DNA of 64,000 nt from Candidatus Caldarchaeum subterraneum (GCA_937934305.1 CALHAG010000001.1:12422-76421), one strand, 5' to 3'. Positions 52,200 to 64,000 are shown, numbered from the stretch's first letter. The notes: generated by a model from the sequence alone, not told the origin. A program made the numbers and translations.

Positions 52200-52649
52200 T
52201 TAAAGCTCGTTTAGAAAGATAAGCTGCGTCTCGAAAGGTTGTTTGTTGATTTCTTCTTCAAGCTCTTTTTCCTTTTTCGCGAACATGACTTTAAACCCAT
52301 TTTTTTCTCCAGCGGCTATGGTTATACAATCGACCAGTGATAAAGCTCGTCGGCATTTTAACTGTGCCGCCCTCCGCAAGTAGGGCGTTATGTCCAGCAT
52401 GTGTATGTATCCGGAATTTAGCAGTTTGTTAACTATTTCTTCGGCCTTTTCCCATCCAAGTTTTCTGCAGATGAGGTATCTGAGTTCTGTTATGTTAATC
52501 TCCGTGGTGAAGGAGTTGATCATTTCTTGCCTAATAAGTTCGGCCAGCCGTTTCCCGGCCTCTGTCCCCGCCAGCAGCTCAACAAGGACGCCTGTATCAA
52601 GTATTGTATCGCCGAGCTCTTTTCTCCTCATCCAGCCGTCTCTCCTCAT
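52200..52649 (-). CDS. vapC: PIN-domain toxin VapC
   Basis: 'ILDTGVLVELL' N-terminal Asp and a later 'SLVDCITIA' Asp. About 140 aa. Overlaps the upstream small gene. Confidence 0.65.
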   Translation of the reverse strand: MRRDGWMRRKELGDTILDTGVLVELLAGTEAGKRLAELIRQEMINSFTTEINITELRYLICRKLGWEKAEEIVNKLLNSGYIHMLDITPYLRRAAQLKCRRALSLVDCITIAAGEKNGFKVMFAKKEKELEEEINKQPFETQLIFLNEL

Positions 52650-52845
52650 AAAGCTCTTCCGTCGATATCATGGGGACGGAGCCTATTATCGAATCCAGCA
52701 CCTCAGGCTTCTTCTCCTGTCTCAGAAGCAAATGCCGTATAGCTTCGTCTAGGTCTACACGGCGGCCATATCGTTTTTGAAGTGTAGCAGCGAAGCGGAC
52801 AAGCATCTCCTTTGTTTGTTTTGCTACCTTTATAGTTGAAGACAC
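52597..52845 (-). CDS. vapB: Putative antitoxin VapB
   Basis: 82-aa basic protein directly upstream of, and overlapping, the PIN gene. Confidence 0.5.
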   Translation of the reverse strand: MSSTIKVAKQTKEMLVRFAATLQKRYGRRVDLDEAIRHLLLRQEKKPEVLDSIIGSVPMISTEELYEERRLDEEKRARRYNT

Positions 52846-54566: not shown

Positions 54567-55435
54567 GGGAGATACTGGGTGAGATAGGTGTGTTGACCAT
54601 GCGCGAGATACGTAAATGGCTGCGGTCGCCGTTTCTGATGTTTTTCACGCTTGTCCAGCCGGTTATCTGGATGGGGCTGTTCGGCAAAGCATTCAACATC
54701 ACAGGCTTCATCCGCATACCTGATGAGATGCTCCAAAACCTGCCGCCATACGTTACGTCTCAGCTGGCGGAGATATTCAACAACATGATGACAAGGCTCT
54801 TCGGGACAGCGGACATCGACTACTTCAGCTACATCGCGGTCGGTATGCTCAGCATCACTATTCTTTTTTCCTCGATGTCGAGCGGCATGGGCATCGCATG
54901 GGATAGACGACTAGGTTTTCTCAACAAGCTTCTCGCAGCACCCATTTGGCGCGGCTCCATCATCGTCTCCAAAGTGTTGTCAGGCGTGTTACGGGCGGTC
55001 ATGCAGGCTGCGCTGCTTCTTCTCGTGGCCCTCGCATTCGGCGCACGGTTCCATGTATTGTTTCCGCTGGGGCCTCTTGCGGCTTTTGGGGCGCTTTTCT
55101 TCCTCGCGCTAGGGCTTACCTCGCTATTCATCGCGCTCGGGCTTCGGCTGAAGAGCTGGGAGTCGCAGGCAGCTGTCATGAACCTGCTCAACCTCCCGCT
55201 CATGTTCGCGAGCAACGCACTCTACCCCATCGCTCTCATGCCATCGTGGCTCCAAGCCGTCGCACAAGCCAACCCCATCAGCTACGCCGTAGACGCCGTC
55301 CGACAGTCGCTCATCTACGGTGCGGCCGCAGACCCTTCAAAGCTCCTCCTAGACCTAGGAGCGGTGGCCGTCTTCGCAATATCCTTCACCGCAATAGGTG
55401 TGTTGATAGCTGACAAAGGCCTCAGAGGAGGCTAG
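54563..55435 (+). CDS. ABC-2-family transporter permease
   Basis: 290 aa, 6 TM. Overlaps the ATPase stop by 4 nt. Confidence 0.8.
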   Translation: MREILGEIGVLTMREIRKWLRSPFLMFFTLVQPVIWMGLFGKAFNITGFIRIPDEMLQNLPPYVTSQLAEIFNNMMTRLFGTADIDYFSYIAVGMLSITILFSSMSSGMGIAWDRRLGFLNKLLAAPIWRGSIIVSKVLSGVLRAVMQAALLLLVALAFGARFHVLFPLGPLAAFGALFFLALGLTSLFIALGLRLKSWESQAAVMNLLNLPLMFASNALYPIALMPSWLQAVAQANPISYAVDAVRQSLIYGAAADPSKLLLDLGAVAVFAISFTAIGVLIADKGLRGG

Positions 55436-55612
55436 GCTTAAAGCCATCGTCAAATGACTTCCATCAACATAGATAAATGGTGTAGTTTGGCAGGCCTACA
55501 GGGTATAACGATGGCCAAGTTCAAATTATCCCATACAAATGGTATTCATTCGGCTCTGTGTCAGATTAAAACTCTTAAATAAGTCTCCGCTGAAGATATC
55601 GGTGAAGGTTAA

Positions 55613-56923
55613 GTGTCCAAGGAGGAGGCAAGACTTCGACTGAAGTCGATCACAATACAAAACTGGAAGGGCTTTAAGGACTGCAAATTGGAGCTATACG
55701 ACGGCCTAAACGTTTTGGTTGGCCCCAACTCGTCCGGTAAGACAAGCCTCCTTGAAGCGTTCAAGTTCCTCAAGAAAGCACTTGTCGAGATGGAGTCGCC
55801 ATACCTGTCGCATTTAGAGTGGTGGACCTACAGAAACATAGTCTACGGAAACGACGAAACAAAACCGATAAGATTCGAGCTTGAATTCGAGCTACCGGAG
55901 GAATATACTGCAACATACGAGGTTGTTTTTACAGGAGTTGGGGGCAACATCAAAATAGCAAAAGAGAAGATGGAGATAAAGAAGGTTGTTTCTTTCACAA
56001 AGGAAGGTGAAACGCTAACTATCGAGTATGACCGGGATTTTTTCGAAAAGAATATAAACATAGTAAATCGTAGGGCATACAAAATTGAACAAAAGAGACG
56101 AATTAAAGTAGATTTTTCATACTGGAGTTTAGTTTTTATATCCGGAATAATACCATTGATACCAATTAAAAAATATGTAGAGAATGAGGTCGAATTGCTT
56201 TCCTTCTTTTTACACATTTTCCGTCCGGTGCGTGAGGTTTTTTTATTGTCCCCAGAATTAAAAACACAAAAAAAGCCTTTAGTGTCCTATGCATTGTATA
56301 GTACAAAAGAATTTTTCGAAAAAATTTTATTCATTAGACATCCAGATTTGGTTGATATCAGGCAGCCTAAGCCTCATCAAAGCGGCTATACCTTATCTGA
56401 ACGTGGTGAAAACTTGGCCGCGATACTGCATAGATGGTTTTTACAGGGCGGCGGCCGGTTACCGGATAGAATCGAAAGAGCTCTACAGAACCTTTTCCCC
56501 TACTTCACTCTGAGACCAGACATAACTGTGGATGGAAGAGTGTTTCTATCGATACAGGATGGTATGTATGGTGCTAGACTTGACCCGCCATCCATCCCCG
56601 ATGGATTCTACAAACTTCTGCATGTTTTGACGGCTGTCGAGAGCGAGCCATCAATACTTTTGATTGATGAGTTGGAGAACTCTCTTCACAGTGAAATACT
56701 CGAATACATCGTAGAAGAGTTAAAAAACGCGAACATCACCTCCATAGTTGCAACTCACTCACCGATAGTGGTGGATGTTGCGGGGCTTGAGTGTCTGCAA
56801 CTGCTTGAGAGAACACCTGAAGGGAATAAAGTGAGACGGGTTGAGAACTTGGAGGAGATACAGAGGTGGATGAGGGAGAAGAAGCTGACGCCCAGCGAGA
56901 TGTGGCTTTACCAGCTTCAGTGA
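55613..56923 (+). CDS. OLD/AbiL-type ABC-like ATPase (AAA_15/AAA_21-like)
   Basis: 'IQNWKGFKD...LNVLVGPNSSGKTSLLEA' Walker A. 'SILLIDELENSLH' Walker B (D-E). 'VATHSP' H-loop. AT-rich gene in an AT-rich islet. Confidence 0.75.
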   Translation: MSKEEARLRLKSITIQNWKGFKDCKLELYDGLNVLVGPNSSGKTSLLEAFKFLKKALVEMESPYLSHLEWWTYRNIVYGNDETKPIRFELEFELPEEYTATYEVVFTGVGGNIKIAKEKMEIKKVVSFTKEGETLTIEYDRDFFEKNINIVNRRAYKIEQKRRIKVDFSYWSLVFISGIIPLIPIKKYVENEVELLSFFLHIFRPVREVFLLSPELKTQKKPLVSYALYSTKEFFEKILFIRHPDLVDIRQPKPHQSGYTLSERGENLAAILHRWFLQGGGRLPDRIERALQNLFPYFTLRPDITVDGRVFLSIQDGMYGARLDPPSIPDGFYKLLHVLTAVESEPSILLIDELENSLHSEILEYIVEELKNANITSIVATHSPIVVDVAGLECLQLLERTPEGNKVRRVENLEEIQRWMREKKLTPSEMWLYQLQ

Positions 56924-57423
56924 AACCGATTTACATCATCTGTGAAGACCAATACGGGAAGTTATTTTTTCAAAACCTGTGTAGGAGGATAAGTAACCGT
57001 ATCAATGTCAAGGTGAAGTCAGCTAAAGGCAGAGGCCGAATACCCTATGAGGCACCCCGCATAATCAAGGCAGCCGCACAGGATTACCGTAAGTTTATAG
57101 TTGTTTTTGACTCGGATGGAGAAAACAACGCAGAACAGGAAATTCAGCAGAAACTTACGAGCGAACTTTCTCAATACAACTTACAGATAGAATTAATTGT
57201 AGTTGCATGCAATCCCTGCATCGAAGAATGGATTGTAGCAAACATGTGCCTCAACGATGCCAAACCCCTCGAATTTTTGAAACGGAACCATAAATATGAA
57301 AAAAGGCACTTGCCCGGCTACGCCGATAGACTCGACATTGATATTCTGTCGAGTAAATCACAGAGTTTCAGGAAATTCTTTGATGCCTTGCGTCGCTTTT
57401 CAGAAAGTCGTTGGGATGTTTGA
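56920..57423 (+). CDS. Small TOPRIM-like partner protein (DUF4276/OLD-Toprim-like), GTG start overlapping the ATPase stop (GTGA)
   Basis: 'KPIYIICEDQYGK' (Glu) and 'FIVVFDSDGEN' (DxD) TOPRIM-like motifs, plus a later acidic 'CNPCIEEWIV'. The ORF from 56866 overlaps the ATPase by 58 nt. The GTG at 56920 gives classic 4-nt coupling. Confidence 0.55.
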   Translation: MKPIYIICEDQYGKLFFQNLCRRISNRINVKVKSAKGRGRIPYEAPRIIKAAAQDYRKFIVVFDSDGENNAEQEIQQKLTSELSQYNLQIELIVVACNPCIEEWIVANMCLNDAKPLEFLKRNHKYEKRHLPGYADRLDIDILSSKSQSFRKFFDALRRFSESRWDV

Positions 57424-57498
57424 ATGCGACAGTGAGTATATTCAAGCGATATGTTAACGGTGTGCTGTTAGCTGACAGAGGCCTTAGAAGGGGCTAGC

Positions 57499-58389
57499 TC
57501 ATGACCAGGCGTCGGATAGCTTCCGGTAGTCTTCTTCGGCGAGCCTCCATCCTGCTCCGCCGGCGTTTTCCTCGAGATGCTCCCGGCGGATGGCTTTGGG
57601 TATGGTTATGACGTGTGGTTTCCAGATGACCCAGTTCAACGCCACCTGTGTAGGTGTTTTGCCGTATTTTTTGGCTAATGTTGTGAGGGCCCTGCCTCTC
57701 TCCGTGTTTTTCGCGGCTTCGGCCGCTATTCTGCCTTTGCCCAGCGGCGTGTAGGCGACCACGGTGATTTTGTTTTTCTCGCAGAAGGGTATGACCTCCC
57801 GCTCGTTCTCCCTGTTCTCCAAACTATAGATAATCTGGTTGGAGACGATTTCCTCGCTTCGGCACGCCTCCATCGCCTCCTGTAAAAGCGGGACGTCAAA
57901 GTTGCTGACGCCTATGTAGCGGACCATTCCATCCTTCACAAGCTTCTCCAGAGCATGCATCGTCTCTGCGACAGGGATGCGTGGATTGGGCCAGTGAATC
58001 ATGTAGAGGTCGACATATTTGAGCTGAAGCCTCTCAAGGCTTCTGCGGCAGGCTTTGATGACGTCGTCGTAGCGGAGGTTGGAGGGCCAGACCTTTGTGG
58101 CGACAAACACCTCTTCACGCGGAATTGTTTTCAACGCTTTCCCGACAAGCTCCTCGCTGTGACCTCCGCCGTATATCTCGGCGGTGTCGATGTGGTTCAT
58201 GCCAAGCTCTACTGCATATCTGATGGCGTCTATGGCTTGGTCGTCTTGGCTGTAGTCAGGGGTTTCACGGCCTCCGATGCCCCATGTCCCAAGACCTATC
58301 GCCGCAACCCATTCACCCGATTTACCCAGCTGCTTCTTCTCCAAACCCTGTATGCAAATGTTTGGAACGTTTAAAGGCTTGCGCATCAA
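57499..58389 (-). CDS. Aldo/keto reductase
   Basis: 'LGKSGEWVAAIGLGTWGIGG' N-terminus and AKR barrel motifs ('IDTAEIYGGGHSEELVG'). Confidence 0.85.
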   Translation of the reverse strand: MMRKPLNVPNICIQGLEKKQLGKSGEWVAAIGLGTWGIGGRETPDYSQDDQAIDAIRYAVELGMNHIDTAEIYGGGHSEELVGKALKTIPREEVFVATKVWPSNLRYDDVIKACRRSLERLQLKYVDLYMIHWPNPRIPVAETMHALEKLVKDGMVRYIGVSNFDVPLLQEAMEACRSEEIVSNQIIYSLENRENEREVIPFCEKNKITVVAYTPLGKGRIAAEAAKNTERGRALTTLAKKYGKTPTQVALNWVIWKPHVITIPKAIRREHLEENAGGAGWRLAEEDYRKLSDAWS

Positions 58390-58459
58390 ACCAGTGGACG
58401 TGGGCGAGGACAGCGACTACTGGGTCATCAAGGTGCCGAAGCCGAGGCGGCTGCTGAAA

Positions 58460-58675
58460 ATGTTTGCAAAGCTTTCGCGAGTTGTTATAGAGGGGTTGTC
58501 CTCATCGATAAGCCTCGACACCCCTCTCATACTCATCTCAGCGGTCTCGATAGGCATCGTCACATTCCTAGTCTTCACACTCGTGTACAGAATCCCCGAA
58601 GTGGTCGCTGTCCTCTTCTCCATCCTCCTCGTCGTCCTCTACCTACTGTTTCTCCGCAGAGAGCTGCGACGCTGA
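58460..58675 (+). CDS. Small 2-TM membrane protein (start uncertain)
   Basis: The ORF from 58277 overlaps the AKR start. An internal Met at about 58460 gives a 71-aa hydrophobic protein with a 'LFLRRELRR' tail. Confidence 0.25.
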   Translation: MFAKLSRVVIEGLSSSISLDTPLILISAVSIGIVTFLVFTLVYRIPEVVAVLFSILLVVLYLLFLRRELRR

Positions 58676-59962
58676 GCCCCATCTCCAGAAAAGGCTGGCC
58701 TCTATTTTCTGGGCCTGAGATGTTTGAGCGGCGTAGCATGCGAGGGCTAGGGCCATGACGTAGTCGTCATGTTCTCCGGCGGGGGCTTCATATTTTAATG
58801 AGTGGCCTGTGTTTATTTCCTGGTAGAGGCGTAGCTGGTTTATCAGGGTTTTTTCGTCGGCGGGGATGATGAGTTTTTTGTTGAGGATGTTGTTGCGGAG
58901 GTTGTTGACAAGGATTTGCTTTGTTGATGACGTGATTGTTATGGGCTGGAGATGTGGTATGGTTTTTGCGAGTGTTTCGGCGAGGGGCGCGCCCATGCCT
59001 GTGCTGTCTACGGCGACGACAGCTGGTTGAAGAACCATGTTGGCCCTATTGATTGCTTCGAGCTGTGCCGCGAAAGGCTTCTGCCTCAGCTCCTCGACAT
59101 AACACACTCGCAGCCTCTCTCCATCCTCGACGACGGCTATTATCACTGTCGAGTCTCGGAACCTCCCGAAATCCACGCCAACATACACACGTCCCCCGAC
59201 AACACGCGCGGGCACAAAATCCTCCACACATTCCAGAATCTTCTCATAGGAGATGAAGGCATTAACTTCGTCGAGAAACTCGCACATCATCTCCTGCCTC
59301 CACTCGAGAGGTGACATGGTTTTACGCAGCTCCTCGAGGTCGTGCATGGTTATGTGGGGTGAATCGCCGAGTTTGACGAGATGTTTGGACCATGTGTTCT
59401 CTGTTATCCAGGCTTCGTGGAACCATCCTCTCTTTCCTTTCGGTGTTGAGACGAGTGTGACGCGCCCGTTGCGTGCGACGGTTGTGAACATGATAGCTGT
59501 TTTCAGGTTTGTGTCGTCTCTGAAGAACGCGGCCTCATCGACGTAAACCGCGTCTGCCCTGTATCCGCGGAGAGACTCAGGGTTATTGGGGAGCGAGATT
59601 ATGCGGCTGCCGTTGCCCAGCTCCACTGTTCTCGCACCGATTTTAGCCATCAGCCTGTATATGCTGTGTCCATGTTTGAGCCGTGTGTTCTCGAGACGTG
59701 AGAAGATTGTTCTTACGTGGCGGAAAATTTCGAGGCTTTGCCTAAGCGAGTAGCTTATCAGGAGAATTGTTGAAGCTGGATGTGTCAAAGCCTCGGCACA
59801 GGCTTCTGCCGCTATCGTGAATGTTGCGCCCGCGCCGCGGTGTTTGAGGATAATTCTGAAGCGGCTGGGGTCGTCGATGAAGTTTTTCTGCCATGGATGA
59901 AGCTTCACATCAAGTCCTGCGGCATGGAGTAGAAGCTGCACCACATCACTTCGTTTCATCAC
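58643..59962 (-). CDS. Phage/virus terminase large subunit
   Basis: N-terminal ATPase (deviant Walker A 'KHRGAGATFT', Walker B 'AVYVDEAAFF'). C-terminal RNase-H-like nuclease motifs ('VAVDSTGMGAP', 'GEHDDYVMALA'). Confidence 0.75.
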   Translation of the reverse strand: MMKRSDVVQLLLHAAGLDVKLHPWQKNFIDDPSRFRIILKHRGAGATFTIAAEACAEALTHPASTILLISYSLRQSLEIFRHVRTIFSRLENTRLKHGHSIYRLMAKIGARTVELGNGSRIISLPNNPESLRGYRADAVYVDEAAFFRDDTNLKTAIMFTTVARNGRVTLVSTPKGKRGWFHEAWITENTWSKHLVKLGDSPHITMHDLEELRKTMSPLEWRQEMMCEFLDEVNAFISYEKILECVEDFVPARVVGGRVYVGVDFGRFRDSTVIIAVVEDGERLRVCYVEELRQKPFAAQLEAINRANMVLQPAVVAVDSTGMGAPLAETLAKTIPHLQPITITSSTKQILVNNLRNNILNKKLIIPADEKTLINQLRLYQEINTGHSLKYEAPAGEHDDYVMALALACYAAQTSQAQKIEASLFWRWGSASQLSAEKQ

Positions 59963-60158
59963 CTGTCCCCAGCGCCTCGTTGAGCATCTCGTCTATGATG
60001 CGTTTGAGACGGTCTGCGTCACGCTTGGTCCGTGCACGGCCTTCGACGACAAGGTCTTCTCCGACGCTTCGCACAACACAGCTAATACCCATGACTGTCT
60101 CCGACTGTTTATCCGCTTCTACGGCTTTTTTACCCCCGGTTCTTAGAAGCCAACTCAT
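59946..60158 (-). CDS. Hypothetical small provirus protein
   Basis: 70-aa ORF sandwiched between, and overlapping, virus-like genes. Confidence 0.25.
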   Translation of the reverse strand: MSWLLRTGGKKAVEADKQSETVMGISCVVRSVGEDLVVEGRARTKRDADRLKRIIDEMLNEALGTGDETK

Positions 60159-60684
60159 CTACACCACCTCCGCCAAGCACAATCCTCTCCAGCGTCATCA
60201 GCTTAACAGCCAGACACACGACTAAAGCTTTGAAATCAAGTCCACCATCAGAGGCCCTTAGCTCGGGAGCAATCTCCTCAGCGAGAAAACCTATTTCCCA
60301 CCGTCCCGCGCGCCGATATTTCTTCGGCTTCGGTAGCTGCAGGGCTGCGAGTTTCTGTTCATCTATTTCTGTTATGTCTGTTTTATCGGATGATGTGGAG
60401 GGTATGGTTATGTTGGCTGTGATTATTTCGGCTGCGGGGTTTTCTGCTGAGCCTATTGTGAGTGTGTAGGGCTGCTGGGCCTCTATCCGTGTCGGCGTTA
60501 TCTTCACGTTTGCGACAAGGGCTCCGTCCACGGTTTTCTGCACAACAGACTCAAGCAGCTCGATTCTCATCCTCAGCCTGCTATTTTCTTCGCGGAGACG
60601 CTGGTTCTCTGACTCGAGAGTCTTGAGCTTCTCCGCCACCTTGGCTGGCAACCCCGACTCTGGGTCGAGAAACATTATCTTCAT
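60130..60684 (-). CDS. Provirus coiled-coil protein (possible scaffolding/assembly protein)
   Basis: N-terminal heptad-rich 'KLKTLESENQRLREENSRLRMRIELLESV'. 184 aa. Confidence 0.35.
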   Translation of the reverse strand: MKIMFLDPESGLPAKVAEKLKTLESENQRLREENSRLRMRIELLESVVQKTVDGALVANVKITPTRIEAQQPYTLTIGSAENPAAEIITANITIPSTSSDKTDITEIDEQKLAALQLPKPKKYRRAGRWEIGFLAEEIAPELRASDGGLDFKALVVCLAVKLMTLERIVLGGGGVDELASKNRG

Positions 60685-60687
60685 GTT

Positions 60688-61368
60688 CTACACCGCGATG
60701 AGGTATAGCTCAGCCCCGCTTGTTGCCGATGGCTTGATTATTGATATTTTGTTGACGGCGACCGGGGTGTCGAACGTGTCTAACAAAGCGTCTGTTGTTG
60801 ATGGATTATAAAGGGTATAGAATGCATTATCGTCAAATATGAACGAGGTCTGAGGGTCGAGCTTGTAACCCGTTACAAATAGTTGTCCTATGTTAAGCTC
60901 ATCAGCCGTTACAGAGGTTTTATTGTTATTTAGTAGATATACCGTCAAAGAAGGATTTGCGACATAACTTGTATTTGAAGTCGCGCGAGTATGCCATAGT
61001 TCCCATGTTACTACCCCGTTTGTCGGTGTGTTACGGTCAACTGTTGCGCTCTGTGTAACATAAGTAGTCGAAGTCGTGCGATGTGTCGTGCCAGCGACTC
61101 CAAGGATTTTCATATAAGCATCACTATAACCACTGCTACCGCTACTTACTCTATGTTGAAATGAATAAGATATTCTTACGGTGTCGTAGAAATTGGGAAG
61201 CGTGTTGACGAAATTGGCGATATTTATGCTGCCTGATGTGGCTAGAACCCATGATGATGAGTTTGTGCTCCATTCTCCAGAATAGGAGGCTGTGTTATTC
61301 CAAACCGGTATGTTCCAGTAGAGGGTAAATCTGCGGCCTACGTCGCCTATGCGGAGTGTAACGCTCAC
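60688..61368 (-). CDS. Provirus structural protein, Ser/Thr/Asn-rich, beta-rich (fibre/receptor-binding candidate)
   Basis: 226 aa. High S/T/N/Y content typical of fibre or adhesin-type virion proteins. Overlaps the upstream gene by 4 nt. Confidence 0.35.
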   Translation of the reverse strand: MSVTLRIGDVGRRFTLYWNIPVWNNTASYSGEWSTNSSSWVLATSGSINIANFVNTLPNFYDTVRISYSFQHRVSSGSSGYSDAYMKILGVAGTTHRTTSTTYVTQSATVDRNTPTNGVVTWELWHTRATSNTSYVANPSLTVYLLNNNKTSVTADELNIGQLFVTGYKLDPQTSFIFDDNAFYTLYNPSTTDALLDTFDTPVAVNKISIIKPSATSGAELYLIAV

Positions 61369-63230
61369 AGCTGAGTCACCTCGCTCCAGAATAGCAACGC
61401 CCGCTTAAACTTAGGCGATGTAGATGATGCGTTCGGCCTGCTCATGTTCACCTCAACCACAAGCTTCTCATATGTTATCGCCGTGAATACATGGTCAAAG
61501 TCGATGTAATATGTGCCGGCGGGGAGAATAACCTGTAACTGGTTGATGTTGCTCCAGCTCGGTGTCCCCGTGGCCACGAAGTCGGATAACTTCTTGACGT
61601 ATTTTTGGAATTTTCCAGAGGAAACGGTTATCTGAGCAGAGTAATAGTTGGATGTGTTTGTCAAGGCTTTTACCGTGATGGTGGCGTTCGCGACTGGATA
61701 GACGTAGATGTTGAAGTAGCGGCATTCTGAAAGGTTCCATGCGAGCGAGCCGGTGGCGGGGTAGGTGAGCGTCATGGTGGTTGTCCCCGTGGCCTTGAGA
61801 GAGTAGCGAGAGATGACGGAGATGTTTGAGTCGCTGAGCGTGCCGCCCGATATAGACCACTTGGATGCATCTTTCTCAGCTAAGGTTTTCCGCGTCGGGA
61901 TGTAGGGGAAATTGTAAGGCGAGGATATGTTGTTTTTTATCACCGAGTCGTCGCCCAGCTTCAGATTAACCGTAACGCTTCCACCGCCGACATCTCTGTC
62001 AAACTTCAGCGTCTTAGGCTCCACGTTCTCCGAAGAAGGCATAAACTCAAGCGTAAACCAACCCGATGTAAACCCGCTAGCCAACACAATCTCCCCCACA
62101 TCATTATAGGTTATGTTCTGCCCCGACGTATAGGGTATCGGTGGAACATACATCGTCATGAATAATTGTGGAATCAACTGGGTGGTGAACCGTTTGGCAA
62201 TCGACTGCGACAAAGCAATAGCGTTTCCCACAGCCTCTGCGACGGACATTTGTTTGCCAAACCTTGCAGCAGGGTCTCCGCCGAACTTTTCATCCAGAAC
62301 ATCCTCAAGCAGCTCCAGCCGTCCCCCCAGCACAACTTCGTAAAGCAGCGTATCTGTCTCGTATCTGATTTCGAGTATGTAGAGGTCTTCGTTGTCTATT
62401 CCGAGGGTTGGTAGGTTGACTGTGACGGTGTCGCCGAGGTCGAGGCCCAGGTTGGAGAAAATCTGCTGATGCATCTGGAGTCTTAGTGAGCGGCCGTATT
62501 CGCTTGCCATGTCGAGACGTGTCTGGGCCCTTCGCATGGCCTCGGAGCTGTCGGTTAGGAACGGGTCATGGACAACGAGAGGCAAATCGCCTAACCCAGT
62601 GTAAACGTCTGCAAGCACTTCACCACCTGCGCCAACATAAACAACCCTGTTACGCAGCCTCCACCTATCCTCGCTATACTCTGCAGACAGTATTTTGCCC
62701 ATGTCTAGTGAGGCGGATGAGGAGGATGTTGTCTTTGGTTTGTAGACCAGCTTCTTCCCGGGCCTCATGCGTAGCCAGTGGTTGGTGGCTTTTGCGATGT
62801 CCTGCATCACTTTCAAAGCCTCGACATTTTCTAATGACCAATTGCTGGTGAGAGCAGGTCCTTCACTTACCTCGGTCACGTCGACACCCTGTTCAAGCGA
62901 TGCAAGGTCTCTGATGATTGCTCCCGCTGTAGTCCCTGTTGGATATTCGCGGAAAACCACGTGACGTTCGTAGAGTATCAAGTCGCTGTGAGCTGTGAAG
63001 CTGCAGCGGGGTATGTCGCCTCTCTGATGTCTTCTGCTCACTTCGTAAACCACTCCCTCAAAAAGAATGGTTGAACCGCGGCGAAGCCTCACCCTCTCAC
63101 CCACATTCACGTAGTCGAGCATCTCTGCTTCGAGAGCCTCAAGGCTACGGCTCTCAAGTCTCCATCGCAGCGACGTCACCACACCCGAGAAATCAACCCA
63201 CGAATCCCCTCTGTAAACCTCGAGAATCAT
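61365..63230 (-). CDS. Provirus large structural protein (tail/baseplate candidate)
   Basis: 621 aa, immediately downstream of the tape-measure-like gene (4-nt overlap). Composition typical of a distal tail or baseplate protein. Confidence 0.4.
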   Translation of the reverse strand: MILEVYRGDSWVDFSGVVTSLRWRLESRSLEALEAEMLDYVNVGERVRLRRGSTILFEGVVYEVSRRHQRGDIPRCSFTAHSDLILYERHVVFREYPTGTTAGAIIRDLASLEQGVDVTEVSEGPALTSNWSLENVEALKVMQDIAKATNHWLRMRPGKKLVYKPKTTSSSSASLDMGKILSAEYSEDRWRLRNRVVYVGAGGEVLADVYTGLGDLPLVVHDPFLTDSSEAMRRAQTRLDMASEYGRSLRLQMHQQIFSNLGLDLGDTVTVNLPTLGIDNEDLYILEIRYETDTLLYEVVLGGRLELLEDVLDEKFGGDPAARFGKQMSVAEAVGNAIALSQSIAKRFTTQLIPQLFMTMYVPPIPYTSGQNITYNDVGEIVLASGFTSGWFTLEFMPSSENVEPKTLKFDRDVGGGSVTVNLKLGDDSVIKNNISSPYNFPYIPTRKTLAEKDASKWSISGGTLSDSNISVISRYSLKATGTTTMTLTYPATGSLAWNLSECRYFNIYVYPVANATITVKALTNTSNYYSAQITVSSGKFQKYVKKLSDFVATGTPSWSNINQLQVILPAGTYYIDFDHVFTAITYEKLVVEVNMSRPNASSTSPKFKRALLFWSEVTQL

Positions 63231-64000
63231 AGCGCAGCCCTCAGCCTCCTCACAATCTCGCGGCTAAGAACCTCGGCAGCGTCGGCGCCTCTTTCGCCGG
63301 AGAAGTTTACGCTCATGTTGACGTTCACGACTGTGGTTGCGCCGCCTCTGCGAAACCACTCAGCCACAGCGCGGGGCAGCACCATCTCACCCTCATGCAG
63401 AATCGCGGGCCCAGTCCTCGGCACATACCATGCACCACGCTGATATTCTTCAAAAAAGCGGCCGCCTGTCTCATGCACTATTCCAGAGCCGTTCGTGCCG
63501 CCTGTGGTGCTATGTATTGTGACATGTTCCTCGACGATTGTGTATCTGACCACTTGGCCGTTGAGTGTGTTGAGGTAGTTGATGAGTGACTGGACGCTGG
63601 AGACGTTGCCTTCGACGGCTTGACGCGTGGTTTCGAGTGCCTTGACAAGCATTTCGTGAAGAGAGCCGGCTACGTTGCCTGCGTTAACTCCAAGGGTCCC
63701 CAGCAACCCGATGAACTCCGCTTGTGTGACTGTTCCATCTGCGAGGGCCTGTGCTAGGCCCTGCATCATGGCTGTGAGCATGTCGCCTGCCTCGGTGGCC
63801 CCCATCATGTAGAGCTGGAGAGCTTGTTGCTGGAGGGAGAGGAGCTGGCTGGTGTAGTTGACTACCGACTGCGCCGCAGCGAGATACTCCATGCTCTTGG
63901 CCTGCTCCTCTGTCAAAGGCTCAGCGACACCAAGCGCTTCATGCACCTGTTTCAACACGTTGTAGAAATCCAGGCCAGCCGCCAAACCCTTCGAAGCCAA
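63227..64000 (-). CDS. C-terminal part of a tape-measure-like protein (gene continues beyond the window end)
   Basis: The ORF is open to the window edge. Ala/Gly/Leu/Gln-rich helical repeats 'LLSLQQQALQLYMMGATEAGDMLTAMMQGLAQALADG' typical of TMPs. Confidence 0.45.
   Translation of the reverse strand: MASKGLAAGLDFYNVLKQVHEALGVAEPLTEEQAKSMEYLAAAQSVVNYTSQLLSLQQQALQLYMMGATEAGDMLTAMMQGLAQALADGTVTQAEFIGLLGTLGVNAGNVAGSLHEMLVKALETTRQAVEGNVSSVQSLINYLNTLNGQVVRYTIVEEHVTIHSTTGGTNGSGIVHETGGRFFEEYQRGAWYVPRTGPAILHEGEMVLPRAVAEWFRRGGATTVVNVNMSVNFSGERGADAAEVLSREIVRRLRAAL

What the first reader, a model, noticed from the sequence alone, without database searches (positions are those of the whole stretch)
58643..64000. 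Partial tailed-virus-like provirus with an atypical gene order (tape measure through structural genes to terminase)
On the minus strand, a tape-measure-like C-terminus, a 621-aa and a 226-aa structural protein, a coiled-coil protein and a terminase large subunit follow one another with 4-nt overlaps. Putting the terminase downstream of tail and fibre-like genes is unusual for Caudoviricetes modules. Either this element is rearranged or defective, or it has a novel architecture. The neighbouring ATPase/TOPRIM pair could be carried by it, or could act against it.
Basis: partly seen in the sequence, partly recalled or inferred. Interest (0 to 1): 0.6.

Follow-up and report, generated by a model that had tools for sequence, protein, structure and literature searches.

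The report
Known Caldarchaeum head-tail provirus, tail end
The region is the tail-tip and DNA-packaging end of a virus-derived gene cluster already described in Candidatus Caldarchaeum subterraneum as CalSub-Pro; putting the terminase last is normal for this group of archaeal elements, and the cluster has been inherited with the chromosome rather than recently acquired.

Summary
The ORFs are real. On the minus strand they run: tape-measure C-terminus, 621-aa baseplate hub, 226-aa variable beta-sandwich protein, 184-aa coiled-coil protein, an overlooked 70-aa ORF, then the large terminase. The element looks partial only because the window ends. Exact-sequence look-ups place a portal and a tail tube on a contig of the same length as the window's. 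A strain 96% identical carries the full set: ParB, portal, S78 protease, HK97 capsid, adaptor, tube and tape measure, about 19 kb.

Window proteins fall in the same 90% clusters as CSUB_C0623–C0628, so this is the published CalSub-Pro (Krupovic et al. 2019). Terminase after the fibre genes recurs in five further lineages, so it is a family trait and not a rearrangement.

New here:
- The element sits at the same locus (aconitase on one side, aldo-keto reductase on the other) in four Caldarchaeales lineages.
- Its synonymous divergence equals that of the flanking host genes.
- Its genes are under purifying selection (omega 0.04–0.27).
- It has no integrase and no att repeats.

These points favour a fixed, possibly GTA-like domesticated element, but one lineage has deleted the head and tube genes.

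The ATPase/RloB pair lies beyond a host gene and is an independent defence cassette.

The parts
63227..64000 (-). C-terminal 257 codons of the tail tape measure protein, cut by the window end. The full gene is 764 aa in the near-identical strain, so it would start near window position 65,520.
   Evidence: phrog_2854 5.6e-4. The 319-aa fosmid-truncated copy of this same protein (L001, whose hub is 100% identical to the window's) falls in a 90% cluster with 764-787-aa 'phage tail tape measure protein' members, including BAJ50482.1 of Ca. C. subterraneum. Orthologues carry PF10145. omega 0.13 against L005.
61365..63230 (-). 621-aa baseplate hub / tail-tip protein. The N-terminal ~340 residues have the gp27 / Mu gp44 / XkdQ hub fold, followed by C-terminal beta-sandwich domains.
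   Evidence: AlphaFold model, mean pLDDT 82.8. Foldseek hits: HFTV1 tail 9h4p_BD 5e-20; MuSo2 43-kDa tail protein 3cdd 3e-17 with TMt 0.63; Mu gp44 1wru 4e-16. Many homologues carry PF24032 YQBQ-like. phrog_9983 'tail protein' 4e-8 at residues 466-581.
60688..61368 (-). 226-aa fast-evolving all-beta protein at the position of a receptor-binding or fibre protein. This role is inferred.
   Evidence: No Pfam or PHROG hit. Only 4 homologues among 1.84 billion representatives. It is 81.5% identical in a strain whose neighbouring genes are 94-100% identical, and has the highest omega of the element's genes against L005, 0.27. It is replaced by unrelated 362-853-aa proteins in sister elements. AF2 pLDDT 81.7, two beta-sandwiches with weak matches to tail-fibre and lectin jelly rolls such as 8ke9 and lambda gpJ.
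60130..60684 (-). 184-aa conserved protein with an N-terminal coiled coil and a C-terminal domain weakly resembling the S74 intramolecular chaperone of tail fibres. Probably a fibre or fibre-assembly component.
   Evidence: Coiled-coil Pfam hits; Peptidase_S74 E=0.0097, below the gathering score, in 3 of 6 family members. In the same 90% cluster as CSUB_C0626. Orthologues sit at the same position in L015, L017, L021 and HR01. A profile search of PDB sequences found nothing significant.
59946..60158 (-). 70-aa conserved ORF immediately upstream of, and overlapping, terL. It is a candidate small terminase or packaging accessory protein by position only.
   Evidence: 96% identical in L005, 74% in L015, 56% in HR01, 43% in L021. 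omega 0.04. In the same 90% cluster as CSUB_C0627. No family hit.
58643..59962 (-). Large terminase subunit (439 aa) with an ATPase domain and an RNase H-like nuclease domain. It is the last gene of the late operon.
   Evidence: Terminase_6N 5e-16, Terminase_6C 7e-8, phrog_2 1e-49. In the same 90% cluster as BAJ50487.1 / CSUB_C0628. Walker B D142-E143, coupling motif S172-T173-P174 and nuclease residues D264, D319 and H398-D399-D400 are invariant across the family and Thermus phage Riverbug. The Walker-A lysine has moved (LKHRGAGAT versus SRQAGKST). omega 0.12.
58379..58675 (+). 98-aa small predicted membrane protein, convergent with terL (33-nt overlap of the 3' ends) and divergent from the host aldo-keto reductase. 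It marks the border zone, and whether it belongs to the element is undecided.
   Evidence: Called in every element-bearing relative between TerL and the aldo-keto reductase. 76% identical in L005 and 38-40% in L015 and HR01, so it evolves faster than the flanking host genes. No PADLOC hit. Not homologous to the small ORF at the element-free locus L039.

Best explanation
Window 58.4-64.0 kb is the distal third of the late (virion-building) operon of a roughly 19-kb element derived from a head-tail virus. The element is the orthologue of CalSub-Pro of Ca. Caldarchaeum subterraneum.

Shown, gene functions in order of transcription: tape measure, baseplate hub, a hypervariable putative receptor-binding protein, a conserved coiled-coil fibre-like protein, a 70-aa protein in the small-terminase position, and a large terminase with its catalytic motifs conserved.

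Shown in a 96%-identical strain, the rest of the element just beyond the window edge: SNase-like nuclease, gp10-like tail completion protein, tube, S8 protease, adaptor, HK97 capsid, S78 prohead protease, a divergently oriented portal, an ABC-ATPase/GNAT fusion protein and ParB. It ends at the host aconitase and reverse gyrase genes.

Shown: 'terminase last' is the standard layout of this archaeal virus family.

Inferred: if the map is closed into a circle, the order is the usual terminase, head, tail order. The chromosome junction simply falls right after terL.

Inferred from shown data: the element has no integrase, no att repeats and no replication genes. It has stayed at one chromosomal locus through the divergence of several Caldarchaeales lineages, evolving at the host's synonymous rate under purifying selection. 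The most likely status is therefore a fixed element that has lost autonomy and is kept by the host, possibly as a GTA-like particle producer. A recently arrived provirus or a random wreck is less likely.
For: Identity:
- The window TerL, p184 and p70 share 90% clusters with CSUB_C0628, C0626 and C0627, and the tape measure (via its fosmid-truncated copy in L001) with BAJ50482.
- Portal, capsid and tube clusters include CSUB_C0612, C0615 and C0619. An exact portal (P0124) and tube (P0143) lie on a 176,926-bp contig, the same length as the window proteins' contig.
- The full gene order is seen in L030, L031 and L033-35. That contig is 95.6% nt identical to the window over the element and 97-98% in the flanks.
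- CalSub-Pro is described in PMC6563490.

Functions.

Family-wide order (TMP, hub, fibre, TerL):
- L006, where TerL is followed by divergent ParB, Cas4-like and RecA-like genes.
- L013-16.
- L017-20, found on 20 contigs.
- L021, where a portal directly follows TerL.
- HR01.

Vertical inheritance:
- The borders are the same (aconitase...aldo-keto reductase) in the subterraneum-like strains and in L022/L014. The aldo-keto reductase side is also the same in L005 and HR01.
- TerL and TMP identity fall together with host-protein identity. Against L005: 90/88% versus host 85-95%. Against L015: 62/68% versus host 72-75%. Against HR01: 54/58% versus host 55-73%. Family members at other loci reach only 42-49%.
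- dS of element genes is 0.42-0.66 and dS of flanking genes is 0.42-0.71. omega is 0.04-0.27.
- There are no direct repeats of 12 nt or longer at the borders.
- No integrase or replication-protein hits were found.
- GC content is no different from the host's.
- An element-free neighbourhood with reverse gyrase about 5 kb from the aldo-keto reductase exists in a more distant lineage.
Against: - The DNA of the window's own contig beyond 64000 could not be read. The upstream part is inferred from a 96%-identical strain and from matching contig lengths.
- One lineage (L014/L022) has deleted the block from portal to tube, and one of its genomes (L013) has a split TMP and a split TerL. L005 has a nonsense codon near the start of its TMP. 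The element is therefore dispensable and can decay.
- The hub, at 43-45%, does not follow the co-divergence trend. It has either evolved very fast or been swapped by recombination, which implies contact with related viruses.
- No expression, particle or packaging data exist.
- The absence of replication and integration genes rests on profile searches, and several ORFs have no hits.
Confidence: 0.85

Rival explanations
1. An autonomous, inducible temperate virus. Related viruses repeatedly integrate at the same chromosomal site, and co-speciation of virus and host mimics vertical inheritance.
For: The virion gene set is complete and the TerL motifs are intact. The receptor-binding gene is hypervariable and the hub does not follow the host divergence trend. 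Related elements with replication or partition genes exist elsewhere: L006 and L017.
Against: There is no integrase, no att repeats and no replication module within the 19 kb. Synonymous divergence equals that of the flanks. Both borders are identical in lineages whose host proteins are only 72-84% identical. A viral-contig scan with TerL returned only a 50%-identical relative and none of this element.
Confidence: 0.1
2. An inert, slowly decaying provirus remnant with no present function. The intact ORFs merely reflect too little time to decay.
For: Head and tube genes are deleted in the L014/L022 lineage, with split TMP and TerL genes in L013. L005 has a premature stop in TMP. No att, integrase or replication genes are present.
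Against: omega of 0.04-0.15 for TerL, p70, TMP and hub at dS of about 0.5, the same as housekeeping neighbours. The reading frames called for TerL, TMP, hub and p70, and the one visible for tube, are uninterrupted in HR01, where host proteins are only 55-73% identical. TerL catalytic residues are invariant. Krupovic et al. also argue that conservation of the morphogenetic module speaks against decay.
Confidence: 0.25
3. A locally rearranged or chimeric element, with the terminase moved downstream of the tail genes by a rearrangement peculiar to this genome.
For: The order differs from the canonical one seen in the nearest isolated phage by TerL, Riverbug. The portal is inverted relative to the late operon.
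Against: The same p70-TerL position after the fibre genes is found in five other lineages with 40-49% hub identity, including non-syntenic elements.
Confidence: 0.02
4. Not viral: a secretion or adhesin gene cluster.
For: The 226-aa and 184-aa proteins have no significant family hits. The hub fold is shared with T6SS VgrG and contractile injection systems.
Against: TerL, portal, HK97 capsid, prohead protease, tube and tape measure are all present. No sheath gene was called. The best structural match is the tail of an archaeal siphovirus.
Confidence: 0.01

Closest known systems
CalSub-Pro, the putative provirus of Ca. Caldarchaeum subterraneum (Krupovic et al. 2019, PMC6563490; genes about CSUB_C0612-C0628)
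   Same: It is orthologous. TerL, p70 and p184 and the tape measure fall in the same 90% clusters as the C. subterraneum proteins; the portal, capsid and tube of the 96%-identical strain do too. It has the same features as published: S78 protease upstream of an HK97 capsid, no att sites, no replication genes, and borders that are only approximate.
   Different: It comes from a different strain or species (hot-spring WGS LJSS01). The 226-aa fibre-like gene is divergent. Next to the element, beyond the reductase, the window carries an ATPase/RloB cassette that several sister strains lack.
Nvie-Pro1 and NCAV2-Pro1, head-tail proviruses of Nitrososphaerota (Krupovic 2011; Abby 2018, PMC5797428)
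   Same: They are integrated Caudoviricetes-like morphogenetic modules without att sites or replication genes, and a GTA-like status has been suggested for them too.
   Different: The authors describe them as highly divergent and derived from distinct viruses. Their protease is fused to the capsid protein, whereas here it is a separate S78 gene.
Gene transfer agents (RcGTA of Rhodobacter capsulatus; VTA of Methanococcus voltae)
   Same: A head-tail structural cluster of about 15-20 kb without integrase or replication genes, fixed at one locus, vertically inherited and under purifying selection.
   Different: No evidence of particle production or of random host-DNA packaging. The gene order differs, since RcGTA starts with the terminase. 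One lineage has lost the head genes. There is no detectable sequence relationship beyond the shared folds.
Haloferax tailed virus 1 (HFTV1) tail, PDB 9h4p
   Same: It is the best structural match to the 621-aa hub (Foldseek 5e-20). It is an archaeal siphovirus tail-tip protein with a gp27-like hub domain followed by further domains.
   Different: 12% sequence identity. It is a halophilic euryarchaeal virus.
Thermus phage Riverbug and Meiothermus phage MMP17
   Same: They are the closest isolated-virus TerL proteins, 33-34% identical over about 90% of the length.
   Different: They are bacterial myovirus-type phages with the canonical order TerL-TerS-portal-head-tail plus an integrase. Riverbug, the one aligned here, has a canonical Walker-A lysine, which has moved in the archaeal family.

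Membership tests
Caudoviricetes-type head-tail morphogenetic module | Large terminase with an ATPase domain and an RNase H-like nuclease domain | tested here: met
   Terminase_6N 5e-16 and Terminase_6C 7e-8, phrog_2 1e-49. Catalytic motifs are conserved.
Caudoviricetes-type head-tail morphogenetic module | Portal protein and HK97-fold major capsid protein in the same element | tested here: met
   They are not inside the window. PF04860 portal and PF05065 capsid lie 7-8 kb upstream of the TMP in a 96%-identical strain. An exact portal sequence sits on a 176,926-bp contig, the same length as the window proteins' contig.
Caudoviricetes-type head-tail morphogenetic module | Tail tube, tape measure and baseplate hub | tested here: met
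   PF18906 tube and PF10145 TMP in orthologues. Hub fold confirmed by AlphaFold and Foldseek.
CalSub-Pro (Krupovic et al. 2019) | Orthology to the C. subterraneum genes | tested here: met
   Same 90%-identity clusters as BAJ50482, 50485, 50486 and 50487 for proteins encoded in the window (the tape measure via its fosmid-truncated copy in L001), and as BAJ50471, 50474 and 50478 for the portal, capsid and tube of the 96%-identical strain.
CalSub-Pro (Krupovic et al. 2019) | No identifiable att sites, integrase or replication genes | tested here: met
   No shared repeat of 12 nt or longer at the borders, and 11-mers occur at the chance level. No integrase or replication family among the called genes.
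Gene transfer agent (domesticated head-tail element) | Fixed chromosomal locus with vertical inheritance across species | tested here: met
   Same flanking genes in four lineages. dS of the element equals dS of the flanks. TerL and TMP identity track host identity.
Gene transfer agent (domesticated head-tail element) | Purifying selection on the structural and packaging genes | tested here: met
   Pairwise NG86 omega of 0.04-0.27 against L005. Only the genes inside the window could be tested.
Gene transfer agent (domesticated head-tail element) | Complete structural gene set kept in all carrier lineages | tested here: not met
   The L014/L022 lineage lacks portal, protease, capsid, S8 protease and tube. 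L013 has split TMP and TerL genes. L005 has a stop codon in its TMP.
Gene transfer agent (domesticated head-tail element) | Particles that package random host DNA, with a head too small to hold the element's own gene cluster, and production under host control | not testable with these tools
   This needs particle purification and sequencing of the packaged DNA.
Mu-like transposable prophage (database names such as 'prophage MuMc02 terminase' and 'FluMu gp28-like') | MuA-type transposase and MuB ATPase | tested here: not met
   No transposase family appears among the genes from ParB to TerL. Only TerL and the hub resemble Mu proteins.
AbiL / HEC-01 / PARIS-like two-gene defence cassette (neighbouring pair 55613-57423; not part of the element) | AAA_15/AAA_21 ATPase followed by a small RloB/TOPRIM-like protein | tested here: met
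   ATPase: AAA_21 1.5e-22 and AAA_15 1.3e-17. Second gene: RloB 2.8e-8. PADLOC PDC-M25A 3e-30, HEC-01A 3e-29, AriA 2e-24, AbiLi 4e-23, and HEC-01A/AbiLii for the second gene. Defence activity itself was not tested.

The most novel reading that the evidence does not exclude
CalSub-Pro and its orthologues may be a working gene transfer agent, or another host-kept phage-like particle, of Caldarchaeales. It would be a 19-kb integrase-less head-tail cluster inherited vertically since before the Caldarchaeum/HR01 split, with a fast-evolving receptor-binding gene. That would make it the first GTA-like system outside the Euryarchaeota among archaea. Krupovic et al. raised this possibility in 2019. The co-divergence and dN/dS evidence found here strengthens it but does not prove it.
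Probability: 0.3. Interest if true: 0.7.

Novelty: already known. Interest (0 to 1): 0.3.

Why it matters
For the scan, this resolves the flag. The odd gene order is a property of a whole family of hot-spring archaeal head-tail elements, and the element itself is already published.

What adds value is the evolutionary picture:
- The element has the same locus in several lineages.
- It diverges at the host's synonymous rate.
- It is under purifying selection.
- One lineage has lost the head genes.

That turns the published speculation of a GTA-like, domesticated element into a concrete and testable hypothesis for an uncultivated thermophilic archaeal group, and it names the genomes in which to test it.

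Tried and rejected
Attempts to read past position 64000:
- Exact look-ups of the hub and TerL returned only contigs that end inside the TMP. Two of them (L001, L002) are fosmid inserts that still carry vector sequence.
- The partial TMP is not on record as a gene product.
- The 176,926-bp source contig was never delivered.
- A word-indexed homologue search with the TMP fragment missed its own close relatives.
- What worked was the cluster look-up of the fosmid-truncated TMP.

Attempts to extend the IMG/VR relative L006 with exact DNA patterns gave no new sequence. A TMP scan of viral contigs found nothing.

Ideas rejected:
- That repeated contig breaks in the TMP signal a repeat or a genome terminus. 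The break points differ, two are cloning ends, and many contigs cross the region.
- That other virion genes are scattered within the window. tblastn of relatives' ORFs found none outside 58.6-64 kb.
- That the 226-aa protein is the C-terminal domain of the 546-aa protein of the sister lineage. They share no similarity.
- That the 98-aa border ORF is a host gene conserved at the element-free locus. It is not homologous.

The S74 chaperone domain in p184 stays below threshold. The bacterial-type promoter and terminator scan is uninformative for an archaeon.

Full report
**Observation.** The minus strand of 58,643-64,000 carries a tightly packed gene string:
- the C-terminal 257 codons of a tape-measure-like protein (63227-64000)
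- a 621-aa ORF (61365-63230)
- a 226-aa ORF (60688-61368)
- a 184-aa ORF (60130-60684)
- a 439-aa large terminase (58643-59962)

Two junctions overlap by 4 nt. The others are a 3-nt gap, a 29-nt overlap and a 17-nt overlap. TerL is unambiguous: Terminase_6N 5e-16, Terminase_6C 7e-8, phrog_2 1e-49. The tape-measure fragment alone scores weakly (phrog_2854, 5.6e-4). GC content is the same as in the rest of the window, and there is no tRNA gene nearby.

**Getting past the window edge.**
- Exact look-ups of the hub and TerL found contigs that all stop inside the tape-measure gene.
- Two of these (L001, L002) begin with cloning-vector sequence: M13/T7 primer sites, a polylinker and GGATCC-CAC. They are 37-kb fosmid inserts, so the 'break' is a cloning end.
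- The species-representative genome hit (L005, a 'Nitrososphaerota archaeon' MAG; hub 86% identical) also starts in the tape-measure gene.
- The route that worked was a cluster look-up of the truncated fosmid tape-measure protein. Its 90% cluster holds full-length proteins of 764-787 aa named 'phage tail tape measure protein', including BAJ50482.1 of Ca. Caldarchaeum subterraneum.
- Looking up the 764-aa member, and then the portal found next to it, gave the whole element on many contigs.
- One of those contigs (SRR21619488_2071) is 95.6% nt identical to the window across the element and 97-98% identical in the flanks.
- An exact portal (P0124) and an exact tube protein (P0143) lie on a contig of 176,926 bp. 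That is the length of the longest contig carrying the window's own hub, TerL, p226 and p184. The window's contig therefore almost certainly continues into the head genes.

**Anatomy of the whole element.** In late-operon orientation:

Host reverse gyrase and aconitase | ParB(-), 90(-), 55(-) | 167, ABC-ATPase/GNAT fusion 482 | 161(-), 139(-), portal 355(-) | 83, S78 prohead protease 202, HK97 capsid 316, head-tail adaptor-like 273, 119, subtilisin-like S8 protease ~300, tail tube 296, 118, gp10-like tail completion 107, SNase-like nuclease 187, [86(-)], tape measure 764, hub 621, 224/226, 184, 70, TerL 439 | 98(-) | host aldo-keto reductase.

The element is about 19 kb. No integrase, transposase or replication protein was detected. 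The borders share no direct repeat of 12 nt or longer, and 11-mers occur at the chance level.

**What the window genes are.**
- *Hub (621 aa).* The protein models well (pLDDT 82.8). Its first ~340 residues have the gp27 / Mu gp44 / MuSo2 hub fold: 3cdd 3e-17 with TMt 0.63, and 1wru 4e-16. The best overall match is the tail of the archaeal siphovirus HFTV1 (9h4p_BD, 5e-20). Its 95 homologues come mostly from Ca. Caldarchaeum and other hot-spring archaea, and many carry PF24032 (YqbQ/XkdQ-like).
- *p226.* It has only four homologues among 1.84 billion representatives. It is the most variable gene: 81.5% identical in a strain whose neighbouring genes are 94-100% identical, with omega 0.27-0.37. 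Sister elements carry unrelated proteins of 362-853 aa in its place. It models as two beta-sandwiches (pLDDT 81.7) with weak similarity to tail-fibre and lectin jelly rolls. I infer a receptor-binding role.
- *p184.* It has an N-terminal coiled coil and a C-terminal segment that resembles the S74 intramolecular chaperone of tail fibres, but below threshold. Searches of PDB sequences found nothing.
- *p70.* It is highly conserved (omega 0.04) and always sits directly upstream of terL. It is a small-terminase candidate by position only.
- *TerL.* It keeps Walker B (D142-E143), the S-T-P coupling motif and the nuclease acidic residues (D264, D319, H398-D399-D400). The Walker-A lysine has moved: 'LKHRGAGAT' in the family versus 'SRQAGKST' in Thermus phage Riverbug. 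From general knowledge, this resembles the deviant Walker A of lambda gpA.

**The gene order.** 'Tape measure, hub, fibre, (p70), TerL' is not peculiar to this genome. It recurs in:
- L006, an IMG/VR contig with hub 49% and TerL 50% identical, where TerL is followed by divergently oriented ParB, Cas4-like nuclease and RecA/KaiC-like ATPase genes
- L013-16
- L017-20, found on 20 contigs
- L021, where a portal directly follows TerL
- archaeon HR01

The closest isolated phage by TerL (Riverbug, 34%) has the canonical order. If the map is closed into a circle, the family order is canonical: p70-TerL-(portal)-protease-capsid-tail-fibre. In the integrated form, the chromosome junction simply lies right after terL. 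In the CalSub-type the portal block is inverted as well. This circular reading is an inference.

**Already known.** Krupovic et al. 2019 (PMC6563490) describe CalSub-Pro in Ca. C. subterraneum. They report an HK97 capsid, portal, S78 protease upstream of the capsid gene, and tail, baseplate, tape-measure and fibre genes. They found no att sites and no replication genes, could place the borders only approximately, and explicitly raise GTA-like domestication as a possibility. Window proteins share 90% clusters with CSUB_C0626, C0627 and C0628 and with the CalSub tape measure. A 'provirus-like sequence' in that genome is also mentioned in PMC3293823. 'Mu-like' prophages of Caldarchaeales are mentioned in PMC10547907. 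The Mu label is not justified beyond TerL and the hub, because there is no transposase.

**What this analysis adds.**

*1. The element occupies the same locus in several lineages.*
- Aconitase lies on one side and the aldo-keto reductase on the other in subterraneum-like strains and in the L014/L022 lineage.
- The reductase side is also the same in L005 and HR01.
- A more distant lineage has reverse gyrase about 5 kb from the reductase with no element.

*2. TerL and TMP identity fall in step with host-protein identity.*

| Compared with | TerL / TMP identity | Flanking host proteins |
|---|---|---|
| L005 | 90 / 88% | 85-95% |
| L015 | 62 / 68% | 72-75% |
| HR01 | 54 / 58% | 55-73% |
| Family members at other loci | 46-49 / 42-49% | not applicable |

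*3. The element diverges at the host's rate under purifying selection.* Against L005, element genes have dS of 0.42-0.66 and flanking genes 0.42-0.71. omega is 0.04-0.27 for element genes and 0.08-0.22 for host genes.

Together these points argue for vertical inheritance under purifying selection. They argue against repeated integration and against neutral decay.

Counter-evidence:
- The L014/L022 lineage has deleted the contiguous block from the 161-aa gene to the 118-aa gene, which includes portal, protease, capsid, S8 protease and tube. It has also gained three metabolic genes.
- One genome of that lineage (L013) has split TMP and TerL genes.
- L005 has a Tyr-to-stop change near the start of its TMP.
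- The hub plateaus at about 44% identity, which suggests very fast evolution or replacement by recombination.

**The neighbouring ATPase/RloB pair (55613-57423).** It matches AAA_21/AAA_15 and RloB and the PADLOC models PDC-M25A, HEC-01, AriA and AbiL. The host aldo-keto reductase separates it from the element. It lies in a 2.2-kb indel (window 55318-57529) that is absent from the 96-98%-identical strain and from L005 and L015. HR01 has it at the same spot, and there it is 77-88% identical while the flanking host proteins are only 55-73% identical. That points to horizontal exchange of a defence cassette. It is not cargo of the element.

**Verdict.** However, the order is a family trait, the element is complete apart from the window cut, and it is already published. 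The most interesting open reading is that it is a functional GTA-like element of Caldarchaeales. The new divergence data strengthen that reading, but it remains unproven.

Noticed in passing
window 55318-57529 (ATPase 55613-56923 +, RloB 56866-57423 +); L038 10935-12730: The two-gene AAA_15/21 ATPase + RloB cassette (PADLOC PDC-M25A / HEC-01 / AriA / AbiL-like) is an indel between strains that are 97-98% identical. In the distant archaeon HR01 it sits at the same spot and is 77-88% identical, while the flanking host proteins are only 55-73% identical. This suggests horizontal exchange of a defence cassette at a fixed site.
   Followed up: partly
L001 1-123 and L002 1-58: Public metagenome contigs (ENA ERZ922823 k127_2779 and JGI Ga0134319_100070) start with cloning-vector sequence: M13 forward and T7 primer sites, polylinker, BamHI-CAC. 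They are untrimmed 37-kb fosmid inserts, and their ends are cloning ends rather than biological breaks.
   Followed up: yes
L033 11941-13389 (-); L017 245-1255; L021 1837-3136; L022 10001-11356: A 450-500-aa protein fusing an ABC-type ATPase domain to a GNAT acetyltransferase domain (phrog_11143 1e-28) is conserved inside the head module of this virus family. It is even kept in the lineage that lost the capsid gene. Its role is unknown.
   Followed up: partly
L033 5702-6613 (-); L017 4918-5808; L021 4558-5769: A subtilisin-like S8 protease gene sits between the connector genes and the tail tube throughout the family, in addition to the S78 prohead protease. This is unusual for a tail module.
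   Followed up: no
L022 8113-24860 (= L014 contig Ga0105160_1000153); L013: This is the positional orthologue in another Caldarchaeum lineage. It has lost the portal-to-tube block, so the ABC/GNAT gene abuts the gp10-like gene. It has gained TPP-enzyme, alcohol dehydrogenase and SCP2 genes between gp10-like and SNase. In L013 the TMP and TerL are each split in two.
   Followed up: partly
L005 126-128: An in-frame TAA replaces a Tyr codon near the start of the tape-measure gene in MAG contig JBEPYN010000002.1 ('GIAF*EAGAY' versus 'GIAFYQAGAY'). It lies close to the contig end, so it may be a pseudogene or an assembly error.
   Followed up: partly
window 58646-59962 (-), residues 38-47: The canonical Walker-A lysine of TerL is replaced (RGAGAT) and a conserved Lys appears five residues upstream of that position (LKHR). 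This holds across the whole archaeal family but not in Thermus phage Riverbug (SRQAGKST). It looks like a relocated lysine, a 'deviant Walker A'.
   Followed up: partly
window 52200-52845 (-): A PIN-domain protein (149 aa) has an overlapping upstream 82-aa ORF, which looks like a VapBC-type toxin-antitoxin pair. It is 94.6% identical in L005 with an unusually low dS of 0.11 compared with about 0.45 for its neighbours.
   Followed up: no
L022 2697-4442: A second ATPase-plus-small-protein pair (AAA_15/AAA_21 359 aa plus a DUF3226-like 221 aa), together with a HEPN-nucleotidyltransferase fusion, lies a few kb from the degraded element in the sister lineage. This suggests a defence-gene neighbourhood.
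   Followed up: no
window 58379-58675 (+): A 98-aa predicted two-helix membrane protein is convergent with terL (33-nt overlap) and is present in every element-bearing genome. It evolves faster than the host genes. It might be a holin-like gene of the element, but there is no evidence for that.
   Followed up: partly
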